From: Octopus vulgaris
Taxonomy: Eukaryota
Direction of reading: 5' to 3'
Assembly (NCBI GenBank): GCA_951406725.2
Contig: OX597839.1
Coordinates: 19,406,001 to 19,470,000 of the forward strand
Length of the DNA: 64,000 bases
Position numbers and translations under genes: made by a program
In this document: one piece after another, positions 1 to 62,011 of the stretch
Position numbering within the stretch: the first letter of the stretch is position 1
Layout of the letters: each line of letters opens with the position of its first letter
The notes under the pieces: generated by a model
The model's database searches: none
Seen by the model: only the letters and a program-made list of their open reading frames with translations
Told to the model about the DNA's origin: nothing

Positions 1-430
1 GTCAACTTAATGTGGCAGTCCCATAAAAGGGAAGAATGCTACTGTTATTTAACCCTAGGATACACCGTTTCCTATTGGACTTAACACATTTCCTGTGTCC
101 TTATGCTTTCAAAGTGGAGACAGGCACCGCCACCCAGCAAAACCAGCACCCAGAGACTAGTTTCAGAGTCATTGCTCATCATCAGTCCAGAGTAGCATGG
201 CTTGCTAGCTGTCGATACCTATCTGCCTTCGAAAACATATATTTCAAGCGAAATACATTCACTGATATTTGAAAATAGAAATAATATATTTCTAAATATC
301 TCAAAGAGATTTACGCAGTAGCAGCAGGATAAAGTGATAGCATGTTGTCAACTTAATATGACAGTCCCATAAAAGGGAAGAATGCTACTGTTATTTAGCC
401 CAAGGTAACACCGTTTCCTGTGTCCTTATG
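1..430 (-). mobile_element. Penelope/retrozyme-like element, partial tandem (346-bp period) containing a hammerhead motif
   Basis: Bases 1-~70 (gtcaacttaa..cagtcccataaaagggaagaatgctactgttattt..acaccgtttcc) recur at 347-~420. A hammerhead core lies on the minus strand in between. A related fragment occurs at ~21745-21800. Confidence 0.6.
147..193 (-). ncRNA. Type I minimal hammerhead ribozyme motif
   Basis: Minus strand reads ctctgga-CUGAUGA-uGAG caauga CUCu-GAA-ACUAGU-C-ucuggg: intact core, 3-bp stem II, palindromic stem III (ACUAGU), GUC site, G-U-rich stem I. Confidence 0.6.
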
Positions 431-772
431 AAGGGGGTGATAAATGAAATTCACCTGGTTAATTTTACGTCGAGATAAGAACTTTGGAACAAATTGACCA
501 ACGCTTAGAATTCAACTTGGAAATAAAACAACAGAATGATTTGCATTACAGAATTAATTCTATCCACCCTTAACCTCTGATCAAAGAACATCGGAGCATA
601 TACCCATAGACGTATTACAGTCATGCTATTTAGCCGTCTCCAGTTTTGGGCCGCAGGCCCAATTAGGCTTCCGCAGGGGCTCGCTTAAAAGCCATACAGA
701 GTGGGGCTTTTTTACACACACACACACATACAGAAATATATATATATATATATATATATATATATATATACA

Positions 773-1068
773 TCACCGTCCCCGACCTGGCTATCAGATG
801 TTTCACATCGCTGGTCACAATGCGTTTCGCATTGTTTTTAGCCTTCCAATGACGCCACCACGCTGGCTAAGCGAGCAGGCCAACAGAAGAGTGAGAGAAA
901 GTTGTGGCAAAATAGTACAGCAGGGATCGCCACCACCCCCTGCCAGAGAATCGTGGAGCTTTAGGTGTTTTCGCTCAATAAATACTCACAACGCCCGGTT
1001 TGAGAATCGAAACTGCGATCCTACGACTGCGAGTCCGCTGTCCTAATCACTGGGCCATTTCGCCCCCA
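773..1068 (-). mobile_element. tRNA-derived SINE, family B head (tRNA-Arg-like; octopus OR-type)
   Basis: Reverse complement begins ggggcgaaatggcccagtgattaggacagcggactcgcagtcgtaggatcgcagtttcgattc (A/B box-like). Matches the copy at 6566-6946. Confidence 0.8.
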
Positions 1069-1167
1069 CATGTGTGTGTGTGTGTGTGTGTGTGTTTATA
1101 TATATATATATATATATATATATATATATACAACTAGAAGCTGGAAAAACTTCATCTGCAGACTAAC

Positions 1168-3054
1168 ATGAAAACCTCCATTGAAAATCAAAGAGCTGTG
1201 GAGGAACAATGGGTAATCAAAAACATCAAACAGAACCCAAAAGTGTTCTATTCTTATGCAAATAAGCATAGAACCACTGTCTCACCTATTGGGCCATTGA
1301 TTGATGAAAACGGCATTCCCCAACACGATGCTAAAGAAATGGCAGAAATACTGCAGAAACAATATTGCTCTGTCTTCAGTGTTCCCACTGATATTGATGT
1401 GAGGGAAACGAACGAAGCTGACTCCCAACACAAAATCGCAGACATAACCTTCACTGCCACCGACATCGTAGCAGCAATAAATGAGGTCAAACATTACTCC
1501 GCTGTAGGCCCTGATAGATTTCCCGCCAGTCTCCTGAAGGAATGTAGATATCAACTTGCAGTCCCTCTGACCAACCTCTGGAGAAACTCGTTAGACGCAG
1601 GTTATATACCGAAAAAGTTTCTATCCCAGTCGGTCATCCCGGTTTTCAAACAGGGAAACAGATCCCTCGCAGTCAACTATCGCCCAATCTCACTCACCTC
1701 CCACATCATTAAAGTGTTTGAAAGAGTGTTAAGATCAAGGATAGCTGACTTCCTGGAGACCCACAAACTCCTAAATTCAAATCAACATGGCTTTCGCTGT
1801 GGCAGGGACTGTCTAACACAGCTCTTACACCACATTGAAGATGTACTCAAAGCCTTGGGAACAGGTTCGAACTCTGACGTCATATACCTTGACTTCAGTA
1901 AAGCGTTCGACAGGGTAGACCATAACATCCTACTCTCAAAATTGGCAAATGTTGGAATCCGTGGAAAAGTTCTACACTGGATTCAGTATTTCCTAGCGAA
2001 TAGAACACATGTTGTAGTTGATGGAGTCCACTCAAACCCAGCAAAAGTCACCAGCGGTGTTCCCCAGGGAACTGTTTTGGGTCCGCTACTCTTCATAATT
2101 TATGTAAACGACCTTTCCAGTGTCGTACATCACTGCAAAGTGAAAATATTCGCTGATGACACTAAGCTCCAGCAAATCGTCAATGAAGAAGCAGACCGAA
2201 CTCAACTCCAGTCTGACCTATATGCTGTGAGTCAATGGGCAGACAGAAACAAAATGCAACTGAATGAGGGAAAATTTGAGCTGATGCATTTTGGAAGAAA
2301 TTCCTCACTAAAACAACCATACTCTCTTCCTTCAGGGGAACCGCTCACAGCCTCTAACAATATCAGAGACCTGGGTGTAATTGTTGATGACGATCTCAGT
2401 TGGAGTGCACACATCAACAAGAAGGTCGATACAGCTCGTAGGATGAGTTCCTGGATCTTAAGAACTTTCCGGTCCAGAGAACAAGGTGTCATCATACCAC
2501 TTTTTTCATCCTTTGTACGGCCACACCTTGAATACTGCTGCCCACTGTGGTCTCCTCACACAAGACAAAACATCTCCAGAATTGAGTCACCCCAGAGGGC
2601 TCTTACGAAACAAATTGAAGGCATGGCTGCTCTCGACTATTGGGATCGCCTTAAAGCCTTGAAACTTTACTCCCTCCAGCGTCGCCGTGAGCGGTACATC
2701 ATTTGTACGATGTGGAAAATATACCGCCAACTTTGCCCAAACGACCTAAACATTAGCTTCAAGGTTCATCCGAGACTTGGACCACGGGCTATACGTCCCC
2801 TGCCAAATTCAAGATCACAACATACATGTACACTGCAACATAATTTCTTTTCCTCAACAGGCCCTGCCCTATTTAACATTGTCCCGAGGGAGATCAAAGA
2901 GGAAAAGGATCCCATCAACTTCAAACAGAGTCTGGATAGATTCCTTCAAAGAATACCAGACAAGCCACCCATAATTGGATACAACTCACCCAACAAGAAC
3001 TCACTACTTGAACAAAACTGGATACAACTCACCCAACAAGAACTCACTACTTGA
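1168..3054 (+). CDS. LINE reverse transcriptase (ORF2 RT plus C-terminal region, N-terminally truncated)
   Basis: 628-aa uninterrupted ORF with NYRPISLTS, QHGFR, YLDFSKAFDRV, SGVPQGTVLGPLLF, FADD, DLGV and RPHLEYC motifs typical of CR1-group RTs. Confidence 0.93.
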   Translation: MKTSIENQRAVEEQWVIKNIKQNPKVFYSYANKHRTTVSPIGPLIDENGIPQHDAKEMAEILQKQYCSVFSVPTDIDVRETNEADSQHKIADITFTATDIVAAINEVKHYSAVGPDRFPASLLKECRYQLAVPLTNLWRNSLDAGYIPKKFLSQSVIPVFKQGNRSLAVNYRPISLTSHIIKVFERVLRSRIADFLETHKLLNSNQHGFRCGRDCLTQLLHHIEDVLKALGTGSNSDVIYLDFSKAFDRVDHNILLSKLANVGIRGKVLHWIQYFLANRTHVVVDGVHSNPAKVTSGVPQGTVLGPLLFIIYVNDLSSVVHHCKVKIFADDTKLQQIVNEEADRTQLQSDLYAVSQWADRNKMQLNEGKFELMHFGRNSSLKQPYSLPSGEPLTASNNIRDLGVIVDDDLSWSAHINKKVDTARRMSSWILRTFRSREQGVIIPLFSSFVRPHLEYCCPLWSPHTRQNISRIESPQRALTKQIEGMAALDYWDRLKALKLYSLQRRRERYIICTMWKIYRQLCPNDLNISFKVHPRLGPRAIRPLPNSRSQHTCTLQHNFFSSTGPALFNIVPREIKEEKDPINFKQSLDRFLQRIPDKPPIIGYNSPNKNSLLEQNWIQLTQQELTT

Positions 3055-3061
3055 ACAAAAC
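2976..3061 (+). repeat. Perfect 43-bp tandem duplication spanning the LINE stop codon
   Basis: tggatacaactcacccaacaagaactcactacttgaacaaaac at 2976-3018 and 3019-3061. Confidence 0.9.
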
Positions 3062-60445: not shown

Positions 60446-60807
60446 GCAACAGCAGTAGGGGGAGGTCAGATGGAGAGGTGAAAGAGGCTGGTCGATGAGG
60501 AAAAAGGCGAAAGAGCATGATGGAGATGTTTGACAATTTGCTTGTTACAGACTTAACCGAATTTTGTTTTGCTTTATTATTTTATTTTTTTCCTTTTGAA
60601 AAAAGTATAATTTATAATGTTTTTCCTTCGAGAAATGATCCGTCGGTTATTATTATTGTTGCTTCTCTTGTTTGTAGCTGTTGTTGTTCTAGGCTGTGGT
60701 GGGAGTGTCAGCGATACCTGCTTACACACACACCATGTAGGTATATATACATATATATATATATATATATATATATATATATATATATATATATATATAC
60801 ATATATG

Positions 60808-61382
60808 TATTTCCTCGAATGAGGCTTTTACATGCCGAAGACTACTTGGTGTAATTGATAATTATTCCAAATTAATTAATTTCACCCTTCATTGTTACTG
60901 ATAACCATATTCATCCCAGTAAATGACCACAGCACTTTGTCTTGGCTACACGCGGGTGGGAAGGGGCTGGTGACACAAACTTTCATTCACACTTTGAATT
61001 TGGTGATACTAGTTGTGGCTTCTAGCTCGCTCTGATACTGAGTTGAGTTGGTGCCTTCTAGTATCTCAAAATTCAATATACAATCATTCATGATTGTTTG
61101 TATCCTGCGCTGATGAGAGAAGAAGTTTGGGTAAGGTAGAATTATCTAATTCTTATGCTTTCCTAAGACTTGATTTCGAAACGTACGTCCGTAGGTGACT
61201 TAAAACTGTATGATAGATTGCCGTCAATTCATTCTCTCTTACCTGTTTGTGTTTGCCTTTCAAATGCTGTGTTTTTACTGAGATCTCCTTTTAGTAGAAG
61301 AAATAGCTATAATCTCTTTGACTGCTATTTCTAAATTCGGTGTGCGGTAAGGCAATTCGTTGCTAAACCCTTAATTGCTTAG
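60808..61382 (+). mobile_element. ~575-bp non-coding retrozyme/Penelope-LTR-like element between (TA)n tracts
   Basis: Unique non-coding block bounded by TA repeats, containing a canonical hammerhead. Confidence 0.6.
61104..61195 (+). ncRNA. Type I hammerhead ribozyme with extended stem II
   Basis: CCUGCG-CUGAUGA-(61 nt: GAGA..AAGU..AGAAUUA uc UAAUUCU..ACUU..UUUC)-GAA-ACGUACGU-C-CGUAGG. 6-bp stem I, G10.1-C11.1 pair, palindromic stem III, GUC cleavage after 61189. Confidence 0.8.
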
Positions 61383-61449
61383 TATATATACAATATATAT
61401 ATATATATATATATATATATATATATATATATATATATATATACATATA

Positions 61450-61615
61450 TACGACAGGCTTCTTTTAGTTTCCTTCTACCAAATCCACTCACAAGGCATT
61501 GGTCGGCATGGGGCTATAGTAGAAGACACATGCCCAAGATGCCACGCAGTGGAACTGAACCCGGAACCATGTGGTTGGTTAGCAAGCTACTTACCACACA
61601 GCCACTCCTACGCCT
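61450..61615 (-). mobile_element. Family A SINE 5' half
   Basis: Matches the family A head. Confidence 0.82.
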
Positions 61616-61975
61616 AGTATAAAATTCAGGCGACAACAGACGGAGGGGTTTTTCTTGAAGCCGAAGATTTTAAACAGAGAAAATATATACATATCGTCTG
61701 AGGAAACACAACTAGATCTCATGATGCAGGGAAACAATTTCATAATCAAGTACCTGCACTCCTGGAGAACTACAATGCGAGGAAACAATTTTAATAATTA
61801 AAAAAAATGAATGTCCAGCCGTATCCCTTCTGGCTAATTCCAATTTTTCAACTGTATATATGTGTGTGTGCGTGTATGCATAGGGAGAATTCACAAAAAA
61901 AACAACAAAAGACGAAGACAGGTGGTGTAGACAACAAACAGATGTATTAGTATAACGCTCGGTAAGTGAAAAAGT

Positions 61976-62011
61976 CTTTAACGTTTCGAGCCTATGCTCT
62001 TCCACAGAAAG
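61976..62011 (-). ncRNA. Hammerhead motif variant (CUGUGGA core) in a Penelope-like small element (~61880-62068)
   Basis: CUUU-CUGUGGA-A-GAGC auag GCUC-GAAAC-GUU-AAAG, the same architecture as 20346-20380 with compensatory stem I changes. Confidence 0.55.

What the first reader, a model, noticed from the sequence alone, without database searches (positions are those of the whole stretch)
147..62011. Multi-family hammerhead population: about nine motifs in 64 kb, mostly in small elements beside (TA)n tracts
Seen: hammerhead-like motifs at 147-193(-), ~3381-3416(-), ~9668-9707(-), 20346-20380(-), 28967-29001(-), 41765-41820(+), 45915-45956(-), 55149-55195(-), 61104-61195(+) and 61976-62011(-). 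They come from at least five unrelated sequence contexts with different stem III palindromes (ACUAGU, AACGUU, ACUC-a-GAGU, ACGUACGU). A decayed Penelope GIY-YIG ORF is in the same window. Established: Penelope elements favour AT-rich targets and carry such ribozymes. Inference: a dense population of non-autonomous ribozyme retroelements mobilised by Penelope RT. If the window is intronic, sense-oriented copies could cut the pre-mRNA. The minus-strand excess (8 of 10) might reflect selection on orientation.
Basis: partly seen in the sequence, partly recalled or inferred. Interest (0 to 1): 0.75.

Follow-up and report, generated by a model that had tools for sequence, protein, structure and literature searches.

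The report
Penelope retroelement hammerhead end-pieces
The motifs are real end-pieces of Penelope-like jumping genes, which are already known to carry small self-cutting RNAs; they occur here at about this genome's ordinary density and are predicted not to cut on their own, and the one oddity is a very abundant family whose catalytic core has a fixed unusual base.

Summary
Nine of the ten sites are type I hammerhead motifs of Penelope-like elements (PLEs): five have an intact core, two carry family-level core variants (U4C, A6U) and two are decayed. 41765 has no core and no family. Shuffles give 0.03 intact motifs per window, but 920 kb of sampled genome gives 2.0 per 64 kb (about 88,000 genome-wide), so five is unremarkable (P about 0.05-0.1). 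The strand excess is not supported: one family splits 7,887:7,731 genome-wide, and no host gene was found to orient against. 'Non-autonomous' fits two ORF-less head-to-tail units (346 and 586 bp). Two other families are 5'-truncated ends of ORF-bearing PLEs (Hydra-type and Neptune-type). The decayed GIY-YIG ORF is real (41331-40759, minus). Lone copies lack the partner that palindromic helix III needs, so cutting a host pre-mRNA is unlikely. Two leads: the 61976 family has U at core position 6 in 15,618 exact copies against 163 with A, and 10 of 29 sampled intact motifs have a 59-81 nt helix II. Cleavage is untested. The scan reported similar PLE hammerhead populations before on other DNA.

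The parts
1..421 (-). Family B element (runs about 70 bp past the window's left end): about 1.4 copies of a 346-bp head-to-tail unit with no ORF; hammerhead 149-191, intact core, U.U at the base of helix II, helix III palindrome ACUAGU, predicted cut after 155
   Evidence: tandem hammerhead pair 345 nt apart in L218
3308..3421 (-). Decayed A-superfamily (A3) end-piece; motif 3381-3416 with G8A and weakened helices
9572..9767 (-). Family C fold-back stub between (TA)n tracts: hammerhead 9656-9708 (intact core, 4-bp helix III, predicted GUA cut after 9663) paired with its own inverted arm at about 9714-9764
20256..20457 (-). Family A end-piece (about 200 bp between (TA)n tracts); minimal hammerhead 20346-20380, intact core, predicted GUU cut after 20350
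28867..29052 (-). Second family A copy; hammerhead 28967-29001 with U4C core (5 of 33 aligned A copies share it)
40759..41331 (-). Decayed, frameshifted PLE linker plus GIY-YIG endonuclease remnant, matched by a Neptune-type query
   Evidence: tblastn E 2e-10 to 5e-9
41765..41820 (+). Single-copy hairpin with GAAA but no CUGANGA; not counted as a hammerhead; possibly a relic in an inverted end of the decayed PLE
45880..46004 (-). Old family E end-piece; motif 45915-45956 decayed (G12A, broken helix III); relatives L091 and L092 keep an intact core
55120..55617 (-). Family F: 5'-truncated 3' UTR of a young Hydra-type PLE; hammerhead 55154-55191, intact core, predicted GUA cut after 55158
60810..61390 (+). 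Family G: one monomer of a young 586-bp ORF-less head-to-tail unit between (TA)n tracts; hammerhead 61104-61195, intact core, 61-nt helix II, palindrome ACGUACGU, predicted GUC cut after 61189
61880..62075 (-). Family A2: 5'-truncated 3' end of a Neptune-type PLE; hammerhead-like motif 61975-62012 with family-wide A6U core (position 62004)

Best explanation
These are the hammerhead-bearing 3' end-pieces of several Penelope-like retroelement families, likely copied into (TA)n tracts by PLE reverse transcriptase-endonucleases, and as lone genomic copies they are predicted to be mostly inert passengers. Shown: the motifs, their families, their ORF links (F, A2), their tandem units (B, G), their (TA)n flanks and their genome-wide abundance. 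Inferred from published PLE biology: the GIY-YIG endonuclease nicks AT-rich DNA, reverse transcription starts near the 3' end and usually stops early or folds back, leaving 150-600 bp stubs. The palindromic helix III would form between two copies on one tandem transcript, so any cleavage would happen in tandem source loci rather than in these solitary copies.
For: 5 intact cores against 0.033 in 60 shuffles; 29 in 919,800 sampled bases against 0, 3 and 1 in three shuffles. Families of hundreds to thousands of first-look candidates. F lies 1.0 kb behind a 584-aa RT + GIY-YIG frame with Hydra motifs. 5 of 25 long A2 copies retain PLE protein remnants with a CX4CX2C linker and GIY-YIG. Outward-facing inverted pairs, partial tandems and one-sided tails match the PLE layouts in PMC8557442. 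(TA)6 within 400 nt downstream of 50% of 24 sampled intact motifs against 21% background. 17 of 29 sampled intact motifs have a perfect helix III palindrome, which the descriptor did not require. Monomer probability of the A15.1-U16.1 pair is 0.00 at all 9 sites with 100-nt flanks, and two-copy folding gives the double-hammerhead geometry for G, F and C. PMC4209133 found most such motifs single, tied to truncated PLEs and inactive as monomers.
Against: No cleavage or RNA-end data. No autonomous parent was found for A, B, C, E or G. Two-copy folding did not give the hammerhead geometry for A, A2 or B. The window is about 2.5-fold above the sampled mean (P 0.054 Poisson, 0.097 bootstrap). The descriptor-only genome sample was itself skewed 13 plus to 29 minus before extension by homology (36:52, p=0.11). 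C has a 4-bp helix III and could cut as a monomer if freed from its inverted arm.
Confidence: 0.85

Rival explanations
1. The copies are active cis-cutters of a host pre-mRNA, and selection has shaped their orientation.
For: 8 of 9 real motifs lie on the minus strand (p=0.04, post hoc). Two family A copies share a strand 8.6 kb apart. PMC-held preprint 10.64898/2026.07.22.740005 reports retrozymes depleted from introns in Xenopus.
Against: No host exon recognised in the window or 80 kb on each side. Neighbouring 160 kb gave 6 plus and 7 minus. Genome-wide strands are balanced, though that does not test orientation relative to genes. Monomer folding is not predicted.
Confidence: 0.05
2. All families are dedicated non-autonomous retrozymes that cycle through self-cleaved circular RNA.
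For: B (346 bp) and G (586 bp) are ORF-less head-to-tail units with one hammerhead per unit. The G junction is present in contigs of a run guessed to be RNA. Such units are described in PMC7229834.
Against: F and A2 continue into PLE frames. Insert ends lie away from the predicted cut site (G: about 200 nt downstream). The G junction also exists in genomic tandems, so contigs do not show a circle.
Confidence: 0.08
3. The motifs are chance matches in AT-rich repetitive DNA.
For: One site (41765) fails the core and has no family; loose scans with one mismatch do pick up microsatellite false positives.
Against: 5 against 0.033 in shuffles; cores intact in 14 of 14 B, 15 of 15 G and 12 of 12 F copies.
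Confidence: 0.01

Closest known systems
Minimal and small-palindromic-helix-III type I hammerheads of metazoan PLEs (Cervera and de la Pena 2014, PMC4209133; parts 1-2 of 4 and supplement passages read)
   Same: Type I order, CUGANGA plus an extra base, palindromic helix III, many families per genome, mostly single copies of truncated PLEs, opposite-strand pairs; molluscs included.
   Different: About 88,000 estimated intact cores against 2,000-9,000 reported there with a narrower descriptor (helix II 3-7 bp, loop 3-10 nt). Helix II inserts of 59-81 nt, mismatched 10.1-11.1 pairs (B, C, F) and a family-wide A6U core are not in the parts read.
Hydra-clade PLEs (Craig et al. 2021, PMC8557442; section 11, passages and supplement rows read; includes Hydra-1_Obim from an octopus)
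   Same: F parent has the CxCX5C linker, CxxC and CxH around the EN glutamate and asparagine, a canonical hammerhead and (TA)n insertion.
   Different: Very young family (99% identical copies) with a 1-kb 3' UTR; identity with Hydra-1_Obim not checked; no tree built.
Neptune-type PLEs (CX2-5CxxC linker; PMC8557442 passages)
   Same: A2 parent and the 40759-41331 remnant have the linker plus GIY-YIG.
   Different: A2 hammerhead has U at position 6; all ORF remnants seen are broken.
Metazoan non-LTR retrozymes (PMC7229834 passages; Li et al. 2026 preprint 10.64898/2026.07.22.740005, parts 1-3 of 5 read)
   Same: B and G are ORF-less head-to-tail units with one type I hammerhead per unit and PLE-type layouts.
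   Different: G is longer (586 bp) than the 170-400 nt of PMC7229834 though within the preprint's 51-972 bp; hammerheads are of the PLE palindromic type; circles not shown.
Natural core variants A6C (Bcep176) and U4C (PMC3088659 and PMC7151607, passages read)
   Same: Single core substitutions with the rest of the fold kept; U4C is reported to stay sufficient in vivo.
   Different: A6C is a single slow phage ribozyme; here A6U is fixed in more than 15,000 genomic copies.

Membership tests
Type I hammerhead ribozyme | C3-A9 CUGANGA, G12-A15.1 GAAA and NUH core in type I order | tested here: met
   5 of 10 sites; not met at 3381, 41765, 45915; variant at 28967 and 61975
Type I hammerhead ribozyme | Helices I, II and III can form | tested here: inconclusive
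   Pairings exist by descriptor; helices I and II are predicted in context only for F and G, and helix III not as a monomer
Type I hammerhead ribozyme | Site-specific self-cleavage | not testable with these tools
   No assay; only contigs were available, which cannot show RNA ends
PLE min-hammerhead (PMC4209133) | Palindromic helix III requiring a dimer | tested here: met
   A, A2, B, F and G palindromic; C has a 4-bp hairpin instead
PLE min-hammerhead (PMC4209133) | G10.1-C11.1 pair, helix II 3-7 bp with a loop of 3-10 nt | tested here: inconclusive
   Met by A and A2; B, C and F start helix II with a mismatch; G has a 61-nt insert
EN+ Penelope-like element | Motif lies 3' of an RT + GIY-YIG frame | tested here: met
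   F and A2; not shown for A, B, C, E, G
EN+ Penelope-like element | Partial tandems, inverted 5'-truncated copies, one-sided tail, (TA)n targets | tested here: met
   B, C, F, G
Hydra clade (family F) | CxCX5C linker; CxxC and CxH flanking EN E and N | tested here: met
   Read in the L068 frame against section 11 of PMC8557442
Hydra clade (family F) | RWK and DKT motifs; placement in RT phylogeny | not tested
   Fetched frames are 5'-truncated; no tree built
Neptune clade (family A2) | CX2-5CxxC linker before a C-terminal GIY-YIG | tested here: met
   L264, L267, L270; Nematis not excluded, no tree built
Non-LTR retrozyme (B, G) | ORF-less head-to-tail unit with one type I hammerhead per unit | tested here: met
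   L218 for B; L044 and L220 for G
Non-LTR retrozyme (B, G) | Abundant linear and circular unit-length RNA | not testable with these tools
   No listed holder is on record as RNA
Non-circularly permuted hammerhead (PMC10085705) | Blocks in SGC, CSG or GCS order | tested here: not met
   None in the window under a strict descriptor; 1 SGC hit in 920 kb; a core opened at position 7 would not be seen

The most novel reading that the evidence does not exclude
A Neptune-type PLE lineage spread to more than 15,000 copies with a hammerhead whose catalytic A6 is fixed as U while the rest of the core and fold stayed under selection, showing that PLEs keep the hammerhead fold for something other than fast cleavage (or that A6U is rescued in a dimer); long-helix-II hammerheads missed by published descriptors make up about a third of intact motifs in this genome.
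Probability: 0.35. Interest if true: 0.62.

Novelty: new member of a known kind. Interest (0 to 1): 0.36.

Why it matters
The population itself is expected PLE debris and says nothing special about this locus. What it adds is a census (roughly 88,000 intact cores, one per 32 kb, in a genome for which my searches found no hammerhead survey) and a natural experiment on an open question: whether PLE hammerheads need to cut. PMC11167929 reports that catalytic mutants do not affect insertion in vitro. The A2 family offers more than 15,000 copies of a core variant expected to be slow, with position 7 and the cut triplet varying between subfamilies, and young intact families (F, G) give direct comparators.

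Tried and rejected
Rfam scan: the 150 rows shown of 549 were microsatellite-driven miRNA and viral UTR matches with no hammerhead family; the other 399 rows were not seen. First descriptor was too strict and found 1 of 5 intact sites. Pfam scans of 312 of 313 filtered window frames and 91 neighbouring frames found only a LINE RT; Pfam also missed the known PLE frame L068, so these blanks are weak. Exon-like segment search in unmasked DNA found nothing convincing. An apparent 37-nt intron in G's helix II was rejected: the insert folds as one long hairpin and no contig skips it. An RT frame beside one G copy (L070) is on the opposite strand and belongs to another element. An apparent minus-strand bias in the genome sample (13:29) did not hold: new homology hits were 22:21 after dropping 21 hits to a (GAT)n false-positive query, and exact counts were 7,887:7,731 and 78:85. 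A reading of A2 as a core-opened hammerhead using the downstream CYGA was considered by eye and dropped, since its helix I would begin with a mismatch. RNA search: no RNA holder listed. A comparison of A2 across related organisms was not obtained. Lunse et al. 2016 and Arkhipova et al. 2017 are not held and may describe similar variants.
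Full report
Setting. The window lies at G000:C26:19406001-19470000 in a 2.8-Gb animal genome. About 64% of it matches repeats or tandem arrays. It looks like an octopus genome; that is my inference from size and repeat content plus recall, not a test.

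Observation. All ten strings are present. A type I descriptor found 4 intact cores and 2 one-mismatch palindromic ones, against 0 and 0.12 on average in 25 block shuffles. Allowing a longer helix III added the 9668 site, which is intact when read to 9656: 5 intact against a mean of 0.033 in 60 shuffles. 3381 and 45915 are decayed members of real families. 41765 lacks CUGANGA and matched only itself and a flanking in-window segment, so it is not counted. The claimed GIY-YIG remnant was missed by Pfam and by a Hydra-type query but found with a Neptune-type frame from this genome at 41331-40759 on the minus strand.

Is the window special? I sampled 92 stretches of 10 kb (80 drawn at random using approximate chromosome lengths, 12 chosen at round coordinates). 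They held 29 intact motifs in 919,800 bases, 2.0 per 64 kb or about 88,000 genome-wide, against 0, 3 and 1 in three shuffles; five or more in 64 kb has P 0.097 by bootstrap and 0.054 by Poisson. With homology to catch decayed copies the sample holds about 88 remnants, 6.1 per 64 kb, against 9 here (after dropping 21 (GAT)n false hits; three window sites were added to the query set by hand). The window is on the high side of ordinary.

Families. First-look candidates (lower bounds, not copy numbers): A 2,403, B 1,438, G 1,799, F 490, C 451, A2 2,620, E 32. F copies are 99% identical and often form outward-facing pairs; 8 of 12 fetched loci reach a GIY-YIG frame, and L068 has a 584-aa RT + EN frame ending 1,022 nt before the hammerhead with the Hydra-clade motifs of PMC8557442. 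The window copy is a 500-bp truncation. A2 copies have variable 5' ends; 5 of 25 long copies keep PLE protein remnants with a CX4CX2C linker and GIY-YIG, two of them (L267, L278) with the U6 core. G is a 586-bp and B a 346-bp ORF-less head-to-tail unit; the G junction also appears in contigs of a run only guessed to be RNA, which shows neither expression nor a circle. C is a fold-back stub whose inverted arm pairs with the hammerhead in 40 of 40 scored hits (the query contained both arms). A is about 200 bp with clustered 5' ends and no parent found.

Strand and host gene. 8 of 10 gives p=0.11 and 8 of 9 gives p=0.04. The descriptor-only genome sample was also skewed, 13 plus to 29 minus, but new homology hits were 22:21, neighbours 6:7 and exact genome-wide counts for A2 7,887:7,731. 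No host exon was recognised in 224 kb, so orientation relative to a gene could not be tested.

Mechanism. Shown: the families, layouts and (TA)n flanks (50% of 24 sampled intact motifs against 21% background). Inferred from PMC8557442, PMC11167929 and PMC4209133: PLE endonuclease nicks AT-rich DNA, copying starts near the 3' end and truncates or folds back, and the palindromic helix III needs a second copy. No site is predicted to form A15.1-U16.1 as a monomer with 100-nt flanks; two-copy folding gives the double hammerhead for G, F and C but not for A, A2 or B. PMC4209133 saw no cleavage of a single motif and low cleavage of dimers, the 2026 preprint saw cleavage in 1 of 9 dimers, and PMC11167929 found cleavage dispensable for insertion in vitro and no read ends at the cut site. 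Lone copies are therefore likely inert.

Two leads. First, the A2 core is CUGUNGA: 15,618 exact 33-base matches with U6 against 163 with A6, a 1% share that fits back-mutation in old copies (inference). Among 21 A2 copies not taken from the A2 search, position 7 was U 9, A 8, G 2, C 2, while C3, G8 and A9 were invariant and U6 was present in 19; the filter allowed one mismatch beyond position 6 and required the helix II and GAAA context. The outer pair of helix I is G-C in A and C-G in A2. Changes at position 6 are reported as slow (PMC3088659, PMC7151607). A search for hammerhead + A6U + catalytic core returned 0 papers. Second, 10 of 29 sampled intact motifs (five of them from two loci) have a 59-81 nt helix II insert, and the inserts of 55 nt or more fold with z of -1.5 to -8.3; the published descriptor caps helix II at 7 bp and its loop at 10 nt, and a search for long helix II with Penelope gave nothing relevant.

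Known or new. The class is known (PMC4209133), Hydra PLEs are known from an octopus, and ORF-less PLE-derived tandem units are known. Searches for hammerhead with octopus or cephalopod gave no survey, and a 2026 octopus repeat annotation has no occurrence of 'hammerhead' in its main text. Two key papers were not held, one supplement file of PMC4209133 was unsearchable and preprint supplements were closed, so the novelty of the two variants is not established. Earlier notes of this scan reached a similar verdict in another genome and report rewired hammerheads in this one; a strict six-order scan found none in this window.

Verdict. Real, mostly ordinary PLE end-pieces; new members of a known kind, with one testable oddity. 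Interest 0.36.

Noticed in passing
window 1138-3054 (+): 638-aa open frame with an RVT_1 domain (E 4e-32), a 5'-truncated non-LTR (CR1-like, label recalled) LINE; not a PLE.
   Followed up: partly
L213:1858-4464 (G000:C2:37912357-37914963): Very abundant young Neptune-type PLE (11,007 candidates, many frames over 800 aa) with no type I hammerhead detected near the frame in L213, L214, L215 or L217; may carry another wiring or none.
   Followed up: partly
window 20300-20340, 28920-28960, 61930-61970 (-): A, A2 and A3 share a downstream CYGAGCG motif complementary to the 3' strand of helix II, a possible competing fold or switch.
   Followed up: partly
window 38661-38794 (-) and 41599-41732 (+): 134-bp inverted pair at 94% identity flanking the decayed GIY-YIG remnant, possibly the inverted ends of that insertion.
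   Followed up: partly
window 9700-9720 and L101-L112: Family C fold-back junctions fall 8-9 nt upstream of the hammerhead core with small differences between copies, suggesting repeated self-priming at one site rather than at the cut site.
   Followed up: partly
L071:8918-8962 (about 1.1 kb left of the window): A further intact hammerhead of another family just outside the window.
   Followed up: no
L083 and L084 (about 40-55 kb right of the window): A duplicated block with nested inverted pairs of two long-helix-II hammerhead families.
   Followed up: no
window 15350-15705 (+): GC-rich 3' end of an RTE-like LINE inserted into another LINE remnant (labels by eye).
   Followed up: no
L167:7455-8560: Tandem and inverted array in which each unit has a long-helix-II hammerhead and a second motif with a CUGCCGA-type core.
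   Followed up: no
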